A stretch of DNA of 55,690 nt, from assembly GCA_964576475.1 (NCBI GenBank), contig CAZNVG010000005.1:1-55690 (forward strand). Direction: 5' to 3'. This document shows, piece after piece, positions 7,130 through 9,351 of the stretch (position 1 is the stretch's first letter; each line of letters opens with the position of its first letter). The notes beneath the pieces are model-generated. The model ran no database searches, was not told where the DNA came from, and saw only the letters and a program-made list of their open reading frames with translations. The DNA is from an uncultured Candidatus Saccharibacteria bacterium. Lineage in GTDB: Bacteria; Patescibacteriota; Saccharimonadia; Saccharimonadales; CAZNVG01. The translations under genes were made by a program, and so were the position numbers.

Positions 7130-7735
7130 ATGACTCAACATGGTTTTAGTGAGGATTTGGAAAAATGGTTAAACGGTAAGCAGAAGAAAACACTGCATAG
7201 TTTAGGCGAAGTTTTTGCTGAAAAGAGCTTTGCTGTTTTGTTTCTCGTTCTTATGTTCTTCCCGTCGTTGCCTATTCCAACTGGTGGTGTAACTCATTTT
7301 GTCATGCTACCTATCGCAATGTTATTGTCGCTTGAACTTATAATAGGCCGTGACCATATTTGGCTTCCCGCCAAAGCAAAACAGCGTCGTTTGGGTGGTC
7401 TCACTGAGAAGCGAGTGTTGCCCTTTATGATGCGCAGGATTCGTTGGTTCGAAAAATTTGCACGACCTCGTTTCACTGGAATCATGACCAATCACCGGTT
7501 TGGGCAGGCTTATGGTCTGACGGTTTTGATATATGCACTTGCTGCTTTCTTTGCACCACCGTTTTCTGGACTCGATACACTACCCGCATTCGGAGTTGTC
7601 GTTATGTCCTTAGGAATAATTCTGGAAGACGGCTTGATTTACGTAATAGGTTTCATAAGTGGGGTCATTGGCATTACGCTAAGTGTTTTGTTTGGCGCTG
7701 CAATAGCTAAAGTCGTCGCCGGTATATTTACCTAA
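7130..7735 (+). CDS. exoD: ExoD-family exopolysaccharide synthesis membrane protein
   Basis: TLHSLGEVFAEKSFAVLFLVLMFFPSLPIP...QLIIGRDHIWLP...PFSGLDTLPAFGVVVMSLGIILEDG matches the ExoD pattern. Confidence 0.8.
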   Translation: MTQHGFSEDLEKWLNGKQKKTLHSLGEVFAEKSFAVLFLVLMFFPSLPIPTGGVTHFVMLPIAMLLSLELIIGRDHIWLPAKAKQRRLGGLTEKRVLPFMMRRIRWFEKFARPRFTGIMTNHRFGQAYGLTVLIYALAAFFAPPFSGLDTLPAFGVVVMSLGIILEDGLIYVIGFISGVIGITLSVLFGAAIAKVVAGIFT

Positions 7736-7792
7736 ATAAATACGGTCAAATGATCAGTTTATAAAGTTAAAGTCAGGTATGAGTGTGGGTCG

Positions 7793-7873
7793 GGGAGGGA
7801 TCGGGTGCGTGCTGGCCAAGGAGTCGAATCGTCGACGTATCCTTAGCGAGCCTTATAGCTCCCGATCCCTCCC
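7793..7873. terminator. 13-bp perfect inverted repeat downstream of the LAxTG gene
   Basis: GGGAGGGATCGGG (7793-7805) / CCCGATCCCTCCC (7861-7873). Confidence 0.5.
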
Positions 7874-7897
7874 AGCTGCGTTCCCCAGCCGCGATGT

Positions 7898-8614
7898 CTA
7901 CCGCTGACGCGGCGTGAAGTACTTGCGCACCAGCTTGTCGCGGTAGGCGAAGATCATCAGGCCGATGCCCAGGACGACGAGGAAGACGCCGAGGTAACCG
8001 AGGGGCTTGGATGCCTTGCCGGTGACGGCGAGCTGGTCACGACGCGGAGTCGTAGACGGCGCGACAGTCGTCGGCGTGACCTTGATGGTCGTCGTGGTGT
8101 CGAGCTTGATCGGCACCGTGGTGCTGGTCGTGCTCGTCGTCGACGGAGCTGCGGTGGTCGTCGTGGCCGGCACCGTGGTGCTGGTCGTGCTCGTCGTGCT
8201 GGTCGTCGACGGAATCGTCGTCGGCGGCGTTGACTCGCAGTTGATCGACTCGTAGCTGGCCTGACGCCCGAGCAGCTGACCCTGGTACTCGACCTCGAAC
8301 CCGATGACACCGCCGAGAATCGAAGTCTCGTTGGTGGTGATCGTGAAGGGGACGAGCTGACCAGGCATGATGACGCCGAGGCTCTTCTTCTCGAAGGGCG
8401 TGACTGCGTCGACCTCCATCTGCGCGTTCGGCTTGCCGATCTTCTCCGAGTTCTTGAAGTAGGACTCGATGATGACCTTGCCGTCGACGCACTTGCTCGT
8501 CGCCTGCTGGTAGGTGTCGCATGCACCCGCCACACCCGCGAGGATGAAGAGGGAGACTGCGGATGCCAACAGGATGAACGGCAATCGCTTGATGGTCTGC
8601 ATTGTGTTGCTCAT
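7898..8614 (-). CDS. GC-rich cell-surface protein with Thr-rich linker and LAxTG sortase-type sorting signal
   Basis: Signal peptide, small Cys-containing domain, TSTTSTT stalk, then LAVTG + hydrophobic TM (LGYLGVFLVVLGIGLMIFAY) + basic tail (RDKLVRKYFTPRQR). Confidence 0.85.
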   Translation of the reverse strand: MSNTMQTIKRLPFILLASAVSLFILAGVAGACDTYQQATSKCVDGKVIIESYFKNSEKIGKPNAQMEVDAVTPFEKKSLGVIMPGQLVPFTITTNETSILGGVIGFEVEYQGQLLGRQASYESINCESTPPTTIPSTTSTTSTTSTTVPATTTTAAPSTTSTTSTTVPIKLDTTTTIKVTPTTVAPSTTPRRDQLAVTGKASKPLGYLGVFLVVLGIGLMIFAYRDKLVRKYFTPRQR

Positions 8615-8689
8615 TTCTGCTTCTGCATGTCAGCGCCATAATGGCACTGAAGGGAACATGCATTAGCTTGGTAGGGAAGTTGCTTGTCG

Positions 8690-8743
8690 GGTACGGTACC
8701 CGTACAGCTTGCGAATGTTCGTAAACTCTACGGGTACCGTACC
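8690..8743. repeat. 15-bp perfect inverted repeat / long hairpin upstream of the LAxTG gene
   Basis: GGTACGGTACCCGTA (8690-8704) / TACGGGTACCGTACC (8729-8743). Inner pairing TTGCGAA/TTCGTAA. Confidence 0.8.
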
Positions 8744-8799
8744 TTCACTTTTCATACCTGACTTGTTAAGGTTCGTTCTGCTCCTAGAGAAAACTCTAG

Positions 8800-8959
8800 A
8801 AAAACAAAACCTCCGAGATCGCTTAGTGGAGCGGACCGGAGGTATGGACAATAAACATATTGCATCCTCGGTTTCGCTACTGACTCCCCGATTGCCCAAG
8901 CGACCAAATACAGGCAAAAGGATCATAGTCCGGATGGTTCTCTCACAATAAGATAACCA
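8800..8959 (-). ncRNA. Putative structured RNA / riboswitch-like leader, copy 1
   Basis: Promoter (8966-8994), then the 77-nt conserved multi-stem element (8939-8863), then hairpin ACCTCCG/CGGAGGT (8809-8843) with a U-tract on the minus strand. Confidence 0.55.
8863..8939. repeat. 77-bp exact direct repeat, copy 1
   Basis: CATCCTCGGTTTCGCTACTGACTCCCCGATTGCCCAAGCGACCAAATACAGGCAAAAGGATCATAGTCCGGATGGTT is identical at 8863-8939 and 9229-9305. Confidence 0.97.
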
Positions 8960-8965
8960 ACCGAC

Positions 8966-8994
8966 ATATTACAACAAAATATCATAAAAGTCAA
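8966..8994 (-). promoter_or_regulatory. sigma70 promoter for RNA copy 1
   Basis: Minus strand TTGACT (8994-8989), 17 nt, TAATAT (8971-8966). Confidence 0.65.
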
Positions 8995-9003
8995 TATTAT
9001 GTA

Positions 9004-9107
9004 TGCTATAATACATATAAGCCAACAGTAGTAGATACGTAAATAGGACCCGTACTAGCTACCTCAAGCGGTCTCTTGAGGTAGCTCATGCGAGCCCTAT
9101 TCTTTTT
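9004..9107 (+). ncRNA. Possible ~90-nt small RNA with extended -10 promoter and intrinsic terminator
   Basis: TGcTATAAT at 9004-9012. 12-bp perfect stem AGCTACCTCAAG/CTTGAGGTAGCT (9057-9086) inside ATAGG/CCTAT, followed by TCTTTTT (9101-9107). No ORF. Confidence 0.4.
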
Positions 9108-9170
9108 ACAGAGGTAGATAGCACTAGCGGTAGCGGGTTGAATGGACCGTACAACCCTAGCCGTAGAGTC

Positions 9171-9316
9171 AAAAAAACCTCTGATCTGGCCACTTATGGA
9201 GCGCAAAACAGAGGTAGACATAGAGATCCATCCTCGGTTTCGCTACTGACTCCCCGATTGCCCAAGCGACCAAATACAGGCAAAAGGATCATAGTCCGGA
9301 TGGTTTGTAATAAACC
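9171..9316 (-). ncRNA. Putative structured RNA / riboswitch-like leader, copy 2
   Basis: Promoter (9323-9351), then the same 77-nt element (9305-9229), then hairpin ACCTCTG/CAGAGGT (9177-9215) with a U-tract on the minus strand. The stem covaries with copy 1. Confidence 0.55.
9229..9305. repeat. 77-bp exact direct repeat, copy 2
   Basis: Identical to 8863-8939. Confidence 0.97.
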
Positions 9317-9322
9317 GAACTT

Positions 9323-9351
9323 ACAATAAACTACTTACAATAATCTGTCAA
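9323..9351 (-). promoter_or_regulatory. sigma70 promoter for RNA copy 2
   Basis: Minus strand TTGACA (9351-9346), 17 nt, TATTGT (9328-9323). Confidence 0.55.

What the first reader, a model, noticed from the sequence alone, without database searches (positions are those of the whole stretch)
7766..8768. Transposase-free cassette with 13-bp terminal inverted repeats, GTTA flanking duplication and subterminal hairpins, carrying a surface-protein gene
Seen: GTTA-[AAGTCAGGTATGA ... TCATACCTGACTT]-GTTA encloses 995 bp. It holds one GC-rich LAxTG gene and a strong hairpin near each end (13-bp and 15-bp perfect stems). Inference: a MITE-like mobile insertion cassette moved in trans, inserted just downstream of the terminator of RNA copy 1. 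Chance coincidence is not excluded.
Basis: partly seen in the sequence, partly recalled or inferred. Interest (0 to 1): 0.65.

Follow-up and report, generated by a model that had tools for sequence, protein, structure and literature searches.

The report
Covarying end-pairing repeat around riboswitch gene
The 13-base inverted repeat is real, but it is not the end of a jumping element: it is a conserved pair of matching sequences bracketing a c-di-GMP-riboswitch-controlled surface-protein gene at the same site in three genera of tiny symbiotic bacteria (Saccharibacteria), and it most likely pairs the two ends of the RNA.

Summary
The sequence is as described: GTTA | AAGTCAGGTATGA ... TCATACCTGACTT | GTTA, 995 bp. 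It holds one GC-rich LAVTG gene and a hairpin near each end.

The MITE reading fails.
- The unit lies at the same site (c-di-GMP-II riboswitch and terminator, then unit, then exoD) in a second strain and in two other genera.
- The arms differ between genera but stay complementary: 4 double changes in one genus; 2 double changes plus one G·U in the other.
- The 3' GTTA/TAAC copy is absent in every relative, so the "target duplication" is chance.
- I found no transposase with these ends, no dispersed copies and no empty site.

The same arm sequence closes a 570-1480-nt highly folded non-coding unit next to metG in all three genera. That unit has its own conserved promoter and terminator. Genome-wide, 8 of 42 GC-rich islands are bracketed by perfect 12-14-bp inverted repeats of unrelated sequence, against 1 of 420 random segments.

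Best reading (about 50%): a long-range RNA helix joins the 5' leader to the 3' end of the message, as a processing or stabilising stem. Rivals: a DNA-level cassette footprint, or an invertible segment.

The parts
7130..7735 (+). exoD (ExoD family membrane protein), convergent neighbour; marks the syntenic site
   Evidence: Pfam PF06055, E 1.2e-30. The same neighbour is present in L001, G001 and G002.
7766..7769 (.). GTTA, the left copy of the supposed target-site duplication; a chance match
   Evidence: At this position relatives have GTTGTG (L001), AAAT (G001) and GGGT (G002), read on the window's + strand.
7770..7782 (-). 3' arm of the unit (UCAUACCUGACUU on the transcript strand)
   Evidence: 13/13 complementary to 8752-8764. 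Orthologous arms covary in G001 and G002.
7793..7873 (-). Conserved 3'-UTR hairpin with a G-rich/C-rich stem (GGGAGGGAUCGGG / CCCGAUCCCUCCC), followed by a C/A-rich linker to the arm
   Evidence: the repeat finder I4. Alignment and RNAalifold of 5 orthologues: 22 predicted pairs, 6 with changes on both sides.
7898..8614 (-). Gene for a 238-aa secreted, probably sortase-anchored surface protein (signal peptide, small beta domain, Thr-rich linker, LAVTG, membrane helix, basic tail)
   Evidence: ORF and translation. No Pfam match. Only one real homologue among 5.8 billion proteins. Sortase genes present in the genome. AF2 model of low confidence, pLDDT 53.5.
8185..8580 (-). Hypervariable part of the gene (mature N-terminal domain), replaced between two strains whose flanks are 85-100% identical
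   Evidence: Sliding identity of window against L001 falls to 0.23-0.48 only in this stretch. ExoD is 100% identical in protein between the two. The surface proteins are 45% identical.
8615..8751 (-). 5' leader inside the arms. Holds hairpin 8690-8743, whose loop motif ACGAACAU is kept in G001 and G002 while the stem changes.
   Evidence: the repeat finder I2. Sequences of the orthologues read by eye.
8752..8764 (-). 5' arm of the unit (AAGUCAGGUAUGA on the transcript strand)
   Evidence: It lies about 35 nt downstream of the riboswitch terminator. No promoter-like site lies between it and the aptamer.
8765..8768 (-). TAAC on the transcript strand: part of the conserved riboswitch leader (CCTTAAC), not a duplication
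   Evidence: CCTTAAC/CATTAAC precedes the arm in L001, G001 and G002. It also follows paralogous riboswitch terminators that lack these arms.
8800..8842 (-). Intrinsic terminator (expression platform) of aptamer copy 1: CCUCCGG...CUCGGAGG followed by UUUUGUUUUU
   Evidence: Read from the sequence. The same arrangement is seen in L001, G001 and G002.
8857..8942 (-). c-di-GMP-II-type riboswitch aptamer, copy 1, directly upstream of the unit
   Evidence: RF03169 40.5 bits (gathering score 40). RF01786 48.7 bits, E 3.6e-9.
8966..8994 (-). Promoter-like site (TTGACT-17-TAATAT) serving aptamer copy 1 and the gene
9223..9308 (-). c-di-GMP-II-type aptamer, copy 2 (tandem), with its own promoter-like site at 9323-9351
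   Evidence: RF03169 43.6 bits; RF01786 51.5 bits. Promoter-like site.

Best explanation
The two 13-nt arms are the halves of a conserved long-range helix. The helix brackets a transcript-shaped unit that has been inherited vertically at one chromosomal site.

Order on the minus strand:
1. promoter
2. c-di-GMP-II aptamer (two in tandem in this strain)
3. intrinsic terminator
4. about 35 nt of leader ending in TAAC
5. 5' arm
6. leader hairpin
7. ORF for an LAVTG, sortase-type surface protein
8. conserved G/C hairpin
9. C/A-rich linker
10. 3' arm

Shown:
- the unit, its position and its orientation are the same in two strains and three genera;
- the arms change on both sides together;
- the same arm sequence closes an independently transcribed, very strongly folded non-coding unit beside metG.

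Inferred:
- When c-di-GMP lets RNA polymerase pass the terminator, the 5' arm is transcribed first. It pairs with the 3' arm once the whole message has been made.
- The resulting 13-bp duplex, stacked on the two subterminal hairpins, works like the processing stems around ribosomal RNAs. It is cut by RNase III or simply clamps the ends.
- This would free the message from the riboswitch leader and define its 3' end before transcription runs antisense into exoD. It would also protect both ends from exonucleases.
- The helix may also help termination, because U-rich sequence follows the 3' arm.
For: 1. Synteny and orientation. The order riboswitch, terminator, unit, exoD is found in L001/L003, G001 and G002. 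Partial contigs L049, L074, L076 and L079 show the same 3' end next to exoD.

2. Covariation of the arms.
- Window: AAGTCAGGTATGA / TCATACCTGACTT.
- G002: ACGTCAGGCATTC / GAATGCCTGACGT, 13/13 with 4 double changes.
- G001: AAGTCAGGCATGG / CTATGCCTGACTT, with 2 double changes (positions 9 and 13) and one G·U on the gene strand.

3. A second locus beside metG has the same type of arms, again compensated.
- G000: AAGTCAGATATGA.
- G002: AAGTCAGATACAT.
- G001: AGTTAGGTGTTTT. All three are perfect.
- The unit has a conserved promoter-like site, TTGAC[T/G]-17-TATATT, whose -10 box ends 40-70 nt upstream of the 5' arm. It has a CGCC-loop-GGCG + U7-8 terminator 15-19 nt after the 3' arm.
- It folds with z = -10.8.
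- It is 24-45 kcal/mol more stable on that strand than on the other in all three genera. The arms form the closing helix in the minimum-energy fold.

4. A third bracketed island (C3:29247-31625) has an orthologue in G002 with a compensated change. Its helix extends 4 further pairs through a G·U on the gene strand.

5. Both arms lie inside the predicted transcript. There is no promoter-like site between aptamer and gene.

6. The UTR elements are better conserved than the coding region.

7. Arms of different islands share no sequence. This fits pairing better than recognition by a protein.

8. RNase III is encoded in G000 and G002.

9. G002 keeps perfect arms at three loci. It has no serine recombinase, no reverse transcriptase and a single tyrosine recombinase.
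Against: - Transcription, pairing and cleavage are therefore all inferred.
- The arms are perfect Watson-Crick cores with abrupt ends. Only one G·U occurs inside 65 orthologous pairs. At the positions next to the cores, G·U (5) is no commoner than A·C (7) on the gene strand. This looks more like DNA-level copying than like a typical RNA helix.
- Half of the double changes are transversion pairs with no wobble intermediate.
- The arms sit exactly at GC/AT composition boundaries. Other bracketed islands are absent from relatives. This points to an insertion process as the origin of the repeats.
- In three other islands (E1, E2, F) the 5' arm contains the ribosome-binding site. Pairing there would repress rather than protect.
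- A 13-bp helix spanning about 1 kb must compete with strong local structure.
- RNase III was not detected in G001, a 93%-complete assembly.
Confidence: 0.5

Rival explanations
1. DNA-level cassette ends. The inverted repeats are made or required by an unknown, transposase-independent process that inserts transcript-shaped GC-rich DNA into native promoter-proximal sites. That DNA might have been taken up from high-GC hosts. The repeats would then be kept perfect by DNA-level copying, for example template switching between the arms during replication, and would have no role in RNA.
For: - 8 of 42 GC-rich islands are bracketed at their composition boundaries by perfect 12-14-bp inverted repeats. 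The figure is 1/420 for random segments and 8/420 for permuted boundaries. No direct repeats are found at the boundaries.
- The arms have native-like composition and narrow length range (12-14 bp).
- The cores are sharp and perfect, with no wobble bias.
- Islands D and E1/E2 are missing at the syntenic sites of G002, and D also at that of G001.
- The first bases of the 5' arm (AAG after TTAAC) are shared with paralogous riboswitch leaders that lack the unit.
Against: - No known mechanism makes 13-bp inverted target copies.
- Arms 1-2.4 kb apart are far apart for template-switch correction.
- Three loci are stably syntenic over genus-level divergence with compensated changes.
- The metG unit is a complete promoter-to-terminator gene whose closing helix is the arm pair.
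- No empty site holding one arm copy was seen. The G002 junction at the E locus shows none.
Confidence: 0.25
2. Invertible segment (inverton). The arms are crossover sites for a site-specific recombinase. The recombinase flips the promoter-less gene relative to the riboswitch promoter, giving on/off phase variation of a surface protein.
For: - Perfect inverted repeats flank a promoter-less surface-protein gene. Recombination needs identical crossover sites, which could explain the perfection.
- G000 encodes 10 large serine recombinases.
- Assemblies often break inside the unit (L002, L074, L076, L078).
Against: - The orientation is the same in all independent assemblies: window, L001, L002, L003, L049, L074, L076, L079, G001 and G002.
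- G002 has perfect arms at three loci but no serine recombinase and only one tyrosine recombinase.
- Arms of different islands share no sequence, so one invertase could not serve them all.
- The metG unit has its own promoter outside the arms and its terminator beyond them, with a fixed orientation in three genera.
- The contig breaks are explained by two allelic N-domains sharing conserved ends in one sample.
Confidence: 0.07
3. MITE: a non-autonomous transposon with 13-bp terminal inverted repeats and a 4-bp target duplication, moved in trans by a transposase encoded elsewhere.
For: - Terminal inverted repeats, no transposase inside, and a GTTA repeat in this strain.
- A second element with near-identical ends exists in the genome.
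Against: - The duplication is absent in every relative.
- Only two copies exist, and both are fixed at syntenic sites in three genera.
- No autonomous partner is present in the genome, in 401 genomes of the order or in IMG/VR.
- The arms covary between orthologues.
- The strain-level variation has its breakpoints inside the gene, not at the arms.
Confidence: 0.05
4. Chance: an unrelated 13-mer match with no function.
For: Perfect 13-bp inverted repeats at this spacing occur 62 times in the genome and six times in this window's contig, which is about the random expectation.
Against: - Complementarity is conserved through 4 double substitutions in G002 and 2 in G001.
- The same arm sequence is found at a second locus.
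- The boundary enrichment is 8/42 against 1/420.
Confidence: 0.02

Closest known systems
Processing stems of bacterial rRNA operons: long-range inverted repeats flanking 16S and 23S rRNA, cut by RNase III (own knowledge)
   Same: - Two short complementary stretches 0.6-2.4 kb apart bracket a functional RNA.
- Complementarity is kept by double changes while the sequence drifts.
- The helix lies inside a longer primary transcript.
   Different: - Here the helix brackets an mRNA and a non-coding RNA of unknown function.
- It is only 13 bp long and nearly free of wobble pairs.
- Cleavage has not been shown.
c-di-GMP-II riboswitch units ahead of sortase-anchored adhesins in Clostridioides difficile (CD2831, CD3246). 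This includes the riboswitch-plus-group-I-ribozyme leader of CD3246 described by Lee et al., Science 2010 (own knowledge).
   Same: - A class-II c-di-GMP aptamer sits upstream of a cell-wall-anchored surface protein.
- In one known case riboswitch control is coupled to an RNA-processing step.
   Different: - No ribozyme is present; Rfam finds nothing besides the aptamers.
- The aptamers are in tandem, each with its own promoter and terminator.
- The organism is a Saccharibacterium.
- The aptamer scores lie just under the RF01786 gathering score and just over that of the RF03169 GAG variant.
MITEs, for example Neisseria Correia elements, whose terminal repeats form RNase III-cut hairpins when transcribed (own knowledge)
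   Same: Terminal inverted repeats, no transposase, location in transcribed intergenic DNA, and a possible RNase III substrate.
   Different: - No conserved target duplication.
- Not multicopy.
- Carries a whole gene.
- Fixed at one syntenic site in three genera.
- The arms covary.
Invertons: Hin/Gin-type and Fim-type invertible segments and PhaseFinder-type invertible promoters (own knowledge; PMC7672463 appeared in the paper search but was not read)
   Same: Perfect short inverted repeats flank a segment that governs a surface structure.
   Different: - No orientation polymorphism.
- No linked invertase.
- One relative lacks candidate invertases.
- Repeat sequences are unrelated between islands.
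Integron gene cassettes (own knowledge)
   Same: Promoter-less, single-gene units of foreign composition placed behind a resident promoter.
   Different: - An attC site is an imperfect palindrome at the 3' end only, not a pair bracketing the gene.
- No IntI-type integrase array is present. Each genome has only one tyrosine recombinase.

Membership tests
MITE (non-autonomous DNA transposon) | Terminal inverted repeats | tested here: met
   13/13 perfect repeat, 7770-7782 and 8752-8764.
MITE (non-autonomous DNA transposon) | Target-site duplication of fixed length at every copy | tested here: not met
   GTTA/GTTA occurs only in this strain. L001, G001, G002 and the metG copies have unlike flanks.
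MITE (non-autonomous DNA transposon) | Several dispersed copies in the genome, with insertion polymorphism (empty sites) | tested here: not met
   Two units carry these arms in 1.47 Mb. Both are at the same syntenic site in three genera. No empty site was seen for this unit.
MITE (non-autonomous DNA transposon) | An autonomous element with the same ends that encodes the transposase | tested here: not met
   No further arm copies in the genome. No paired arms outside the family in 401 genomes of the order. None among the 45 IMG/VR hits. ISfinder was not available.
Inverton (invertible DNA segment) | Both orientations present in a population or between isolates | tested here: inconclusive
   All ten independent assemblies show one orientation.
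Inverton (invertible DNA segment) | A site-specific invertase, usually linked | tested here: not met
   None lies in the neighbourhood. G002 has no serine recombinase and one tyrosine recombinase, yet keeps perfect arms.
c-di-GMP-II riboswitch-controlled gene | Aptamer matching the class-II covariance model, upstream on the same strand, with an expression platform | tested here: met
   - RF03169: 40.5 and 43.6 bits, at or above its gathering score of 40.
- RF01786: 48.7 and 51.5 bits, below its 53.5 here but above it in the G001 orthologue at 54.3.
- A terminator follows at 8800-8842.
- Ligand binding was not tested.
Sortase substrate (LPXTG-type cell-wall sorting signal) | N-terminal signal peptide; C-terminal LPXTG-like motif, hydrophobic helix and basic tail; a sortase in the genome | tested here: met
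   The translation shows LAVTG, then a membrane helix, then RDKLVRKYFTPRQR. There are 5-6 sortase (PF04203) genes per genome. Anchoring itself was not tested.
RNase III-type long-range processing stem | Complementary stretches flanking the mature RNA, kept by compensatory change | tested here: met
   Double changes at three loci across three genera.
RNase III-type long-range processing stem | Both strands of the helix lie on one transcript, and the helix is cut by RNase III | not testable with these tools
   Promoter and terminator positions are compatible. rnc is present in G000 and G002. No RNA data were available.

The most novel reading that the evidence does not exclude
A previously undescribed habit of this Saccharibacteria lineage. 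Transcript-shaped GC-rich units are each clamped by their own 12-14-bp terminal helix placed about 30-45 nt behind a native promoter or riboswitch terminator. The units include surface-protein and zinc-ribbon genes and a 570-1480-nt ornate non-coding RNA. The arms define and protect the ends of imported or highly structured RNAs, or they mark a new promoter-trapping way of inserting such units. The metG-linked unit would then be a new class of large structured RNA.
Probability: 0.3. Interest if true: 0.75.

Novelty: new variant of a known kind. Interest (0 to 1): 0.55.

Why it matters
If the arms pair in RNA, this is an mRNA whose two ends are joined by a conserved helix, downstream of a second-messenger riboswitch. 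That adds a processing or stability layer to c-di-GMP control of a host-contact surface protein in an obligate epibiont.

The same helix on a large, strongly folded RNA beside metG points to a shared end-recognition module and to a candidate new large non-coding RNA.

The genome-wide link between perfect inverted repeats and GC-rich islands bears on how ultra-small symbionts take in and domesticate foreign genes. It can be tested directly with compensatory mutants and end-mapping.

It also serves as a caution. "Terminal repeats plus a 4-bp duplication" can be mimicked by a functional long-range helix plus chance.

Tried and rejected
- **JGI metagenome scan with an ExoD alignment.** Only one short family-level contig (L049) turned up. 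The genome-contig scan gave only distant ExoD relatives with no riboswitch or arms nearby.
- **Homologue searches for the surface proteins.** They were swamped by Thr-rich words and returned one real homologue and the query itself.
- **Exact look-ups of flanking proteins to find strain-level empty sites for other islands.** They returned only the same strain, or nothing.
- **Pattern TTRACAMGTYAGRYRT across 401 genomes of the order.** The nine hits outside the family are single sites in coding DNA or promoters, with no partner arm.
- **RNAduplex energies between island boundaries.** Useless: long imperfect duplexes gave about -150 kcal/mol for real and control pairs alike.
- **Wobble-bias test next to the perfect cores.** No bias (5 G·U, 7 A·C), so it does not decide between RNA and DNA.
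- **Two-sequence RNAalifold of the metG units.** The sequences are too diverged for a trustworthy alignment; only local helices are comparable.
- **AlphaFold2 of the 238-aa protein without an alignment.** pLDDT 53.5, so no fold search was made.
- **Orthologue of the differently bracketed riboswitch gene of another family (L029).** None was found in its family.
- **Rfam on both units.** Nothing besides the aptamers. No group I or II intron, ROOL, GOLLD or other known large RNA.
- **Integron, IS200/IS605, retron and group II intron readings.** Considered and dropped on anatomy: no attC-type 3' palindrome, and no RT in G001 or G002. The GTGTG next to the left arm is not conserved in orthologues.
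Full report
**1.

On the + strand the window reads GTTA (7766-7769), AAGTCAGGTATGA (7770-7782) ... TCATACCTGACTT (8752-8764), GTTA (8765-8768). The arms and the DNA between them make 995 bp.

Inside lie:
- a hairpin with a 13-bp perfect core (7793-7873);
- a hairpin with a 15-bp perfect core (8690-8743);
- one credible gene, 7898..8614 on the minus strand.

The 238-aa product has a signal peptide, a short domain, a Thr-rich linker, LAVTG, a membrane helix and a basic tail. It has no Pfam match. GC is 0.61 inside the unit and 0.41 outside.

The genome is a 1.47-Mb, 46% GC assembly. The nearest ExoD relatives outside it are Candidatus Saccharibacteria and Solirubrobacterales.

**2. The context changes the picture**

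Two class-II c-di-GMP aptamers lie on the minus strand at 8857-8942 and 9223-9308.
- RF03169 scores 40.5 and 43.6 bits (gathering score 40).
- RF01786 scores 48.7 and 51.5 bits, E about 1e-9.

Each aptamer has a promoter-like site upstream and a terminator downstream. The gene is on the same strand, directly behind the terminator of copy 1 (8800-8842). No promoter-like site lies in between.

Sortase genes are present, so an LAVTG protein can be anchored.

**3. The unit is not a recent insertion**

The same arrangement, riboswitch then terminator then unit then convergent exoD, is present in:
- a second strain, L001/L077. Its ExoD is 100% identical in protein, yet its surface protein is only 45% identical;
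- the two other genomes of the family, G001 and G002, which belong to different genera with ExoD 68% and 63% identical.

Short contigs from further lineages (L049, L074, L076, L079) show the same 3' hairpin and arm next to exoD. The orientation is the same in all of them.

**4. The target duplication is chance**

On the transcript strand, TAAC precedes the 5' arm in every lineage. It also follows the terminators of paralogous riboswitches that have no such arms. It therefore belongs to the leader.

After the 3' arm the window has TAAC. L001 has CACAAC, G001 has ATTT and G002 has ACCC.

**5. The arms covary**

| Lineage | 5' arm | 3' arm | Pairing |
|---|---|---|---|
| Window and L001 | AAGTCAGGTATGA | TCATACCTGACTT | 13/13 |
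| G002 | ACGTCAGGCATTC | GAATGCCTGACGT | 13/13, four positions changed on both sides |
| G001 | AAGTCAGGCATGG | CTATGCCTGACTT | two double changes (positions 9 and 13), one G·U on the gene strand |

. The flanking intergenic DNA between these genera is barely alignable. Independent decay would have destroyed the repeat.

The 3' UTR hairpin and the block GCGGCTGGGAACGC are also conserved, with compensated pairs. The leader hairpin keeps the loop motif ACGAACAU while its stem changes (read).

**6. Strain-level variation does not use the arms**

Between the window and L001 the identity is 85-100% everywhere except 8185-8580. There it falls to random level.

The breakpoints lie in the signal-peptide codons and in the Thr-rich linker. 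The mature N-terminal domain has therefore been exchanged inside an otherwise conserved unit. No silent copy of either domain exists elsewhere in the genome.

**7. A second locus with the same arms**

The genome holds one more pair, AAGTCAGATATGA / TCATATCTGACTT, at contig C3:31922-32503. It encloses 556 bp with no ORF of 60 aa or more and no Rfam match. It lies next to metG.

The same unit sits at the same place in the other two genera:
- G002: arms AAGTCAGATACAT / ATGTATCTGACTT.
- G001: arms AGTTAGGTGTTTT / AAAACACCTAACT, and the unit is 1481 nt long.

All three pairs are perfect and compensated. None has a flanking duplication.

In all three genera a promoter-like site, TTGAC[T/G]-17-TATATT, has its -10 box ending 40-70 nt upstream of the 5' arm. 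A small terminator, CGCC-loop-GGCG plus 7-8 U, lies 15-19 nt after the 3' arm.

The unit folds very strongly:
- -285 kcal/mol for 592 nt, z = -10.8;
- 24-45 kcal/mol more stable on the promoter strand than on the other strand in all three genera;
- the arms form the closing helix.

This is the anatomy of a gene for a large structured RNA whose outermost helix is the arm pair. Its last hairpin (GAGGGG...CCCCTC) and its C/A-rich linker resemble those of the surface-protein unit.

**8. A genome-wide pattern**

A 13-bp inverted repeat at this spacing is ordinary in itself: there are 62 in the genome. Position is what matters.

| Comparison | Boundaries bracketed by a perfect inverted repeat of 12 bp or more |
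|---|---|
| 42 GC-rich islands of at least 350 bp | 8 (lengths 12-14 bp) |
| Random segments of the same lengths | 1 of 420 |
| Left and right boundaries of different islands, permuted | 8 of 420 |

No direct repeats of 12-30 bp bracket the islands; a single 31-bp direct match was seen.

The arm sequences are unrelated between islands. One exception is a pair of neighbouring islands whose 5' arms contain the ribosome-binding site.

A further island (C3:29247-31625) has an orthologue in G002 with a compensated A/T to T/A change. Its helix runs four more pairs outward through a G·U on the gene strand.

Two other islands are absent from the syntenic sites of relatives (G002 for both; G001 for one). 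Such units therefore do come and go on a long time scale.

**9. What is excluded**

*MITE.*
- No conserved duplication, no dispersed copies and no partner with a transposase.
- No paired arms in 401 genomes of the order outside the family.
- None in IMG/VR.

*Inverton.*
- One orientation in ten assemblies.
- Unrelated arm sequences between islands.
- G002 keeps perfect arms at three loci, although it has no serine recombinase, no reverse transcriptase and a single tyrosine recombinase.

*Chance.* Excluded by the orthologues.

**10. What remains**

The best-supported function is pairing of the two arms in the RNA. The evidence is:
- both arms lie within the predicted transcripts;
- the arm pair is the closing helix of an independently defined RNA gene;
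- the sequences are free to vary while complementarity is kept;
- RNase III is encoded in G000 and G002.

I infer a processing or end-clamping stem, like those around rRNAs. It would separate the message from its riboswitch leader and fix its 3' end before exoD.

This reading has real weaknesses.
- The arms are perfect, sharply bounded and nearly free of wobble pairs.
- G·U is no more frequent than A·C beside the cores.
- The arms sit at composition boundaries.
- In some islands the 5' arm covers the ribosome-binding site.

These features fit a DNA-level origin or maintenance, for which I know no mechanism. I put the RNA helix at about 0.5, a DNA-level cassette footprint at about 0.25, an inverton at 0.07 and the MITE at 0.05.

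**11. Literature**

Two full-text searches were run. One combined Saccharibacteria with inverted repeats, horizontal transfer, Actinobacteria and GC content. The other combined the c-di-GMP-II riboswitch with Saccharibacteria. Neither found a description of these units. Comparisons with rRNA processing stems, the C. difficile riboswitch units, Correia elements, invertons and integrons rest on my own knowledge.

**12. Verdict**

Interest is moderate to good, and the mechanism is still unproven.

Noticed in passing
Own genome contig C3:31922-32503 (L004 4923-5504, minus strand); L087 1977-2550 (G002); L086 (G001, about 1480 nt): Candidate new large structured non-coding RNA beside metG. It is 570-1480 nt long with z = -10.8. 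It has a conserved promoter-like site, TTGAC[T/G]-17-TATATT, and a CGCC-loop-GGCG + U7-8 terminator. The closing helix has the same sequence type as the arms of this finding. There is no Rfam match.
   Followed up: partly
Own genome: C9:33537-34376, C9:9112-9675, C9:10355-10858, C3:29247-31625, C2:10042-10998, C15:20048-22399: Six further GC-rich islands are bracketed at their composition boundaries by perfect 12-14-bp inverted repeats of unrelated sequence. Overall this is 8/42 islands against 1/420 random segments. In three of them (C9:9112, C9:10355, C2:10042) the 5' arm contains the Shine-Dalgarno sequence.
   Followed up: partly
window 8185-8580 compared with L001 6030-6460: The mature N-terminal domain of the surface protein is completely replaced between two strains whose flanks are 85-100% identical and whose ExoD is identical. 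Both versions are GC-rich. No donor copy exists in the genome.
   Followed up: partly
window 7736-7769 and the equivalent stretch after the 3' arm in L001, L074, L076, G001, G002; also after the 3' arms at C9:34377, C2:10999 and C9:10355: A short AT-rich motif of the type CTTTATAA / CTTATTAA(C) recurs 1-12 nt beyond the 3' arm of the orthologues and of several unrelated bracketed islands. It was seen by eye only and its significance was not tested.
   Followed up: no
Whole genome G000 compared with G001 and G002: G000 is 1.47 Mb with 10 large serine recombinases and one reverse transcriptase. Its two family relatives are about 0.9 Mb with 3 and 0 serine recombinases and no RT. This suggests many integrated elements, or some contamination (4% estimated).
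   Followed up: no
L029 (G027:C18, another family of the order), minus strand: Another c-di-GMP-II riboswitch-controlled gene is bracketed by a different, longer inverted repeat: TATTCTGATTACAGATTC + GAGTACGAG, 18 + 9 bp with a 3-nt bulge, about 950 bp apart. No orthologue was found for a covariation test.
   Followed up: partly
L038 1012-2300 (G002:C6) and L039 2071-2783 (G001:C16): A paralogous c-di-GMP-II riboswitch unit: the same TTAAC leader, a conserved leader hairpin (GGAGTAGCTTTGTGG...CCACTAAGCTACTCC) and a GC-rich secreted-protein gene. It has no bracketing repeat of 10 bp or more.
   Followed up: partly
window 8943-9222: Aptamer copy 2 is followed by its terminator, a 27-nt-arm hairpin (9042-9101) and then the promoter of copy 1, with no gene in between. 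G001 and G002 have a single aptamer at this locus, so the tandem arrangement is a local duplication (366-bp period).
   Followed up: no
Own genome C9:10950-11300 and G002:C41:1981-2332 (L102): A stretch downstream of pth is 82% identical between genera, far above its surroundings. It may be an RNA gene. In G002 it abuts the pth stop codon, whereas G000 has 1.8 kb with two bracketed islands inserted between the two.
   Followed up: no
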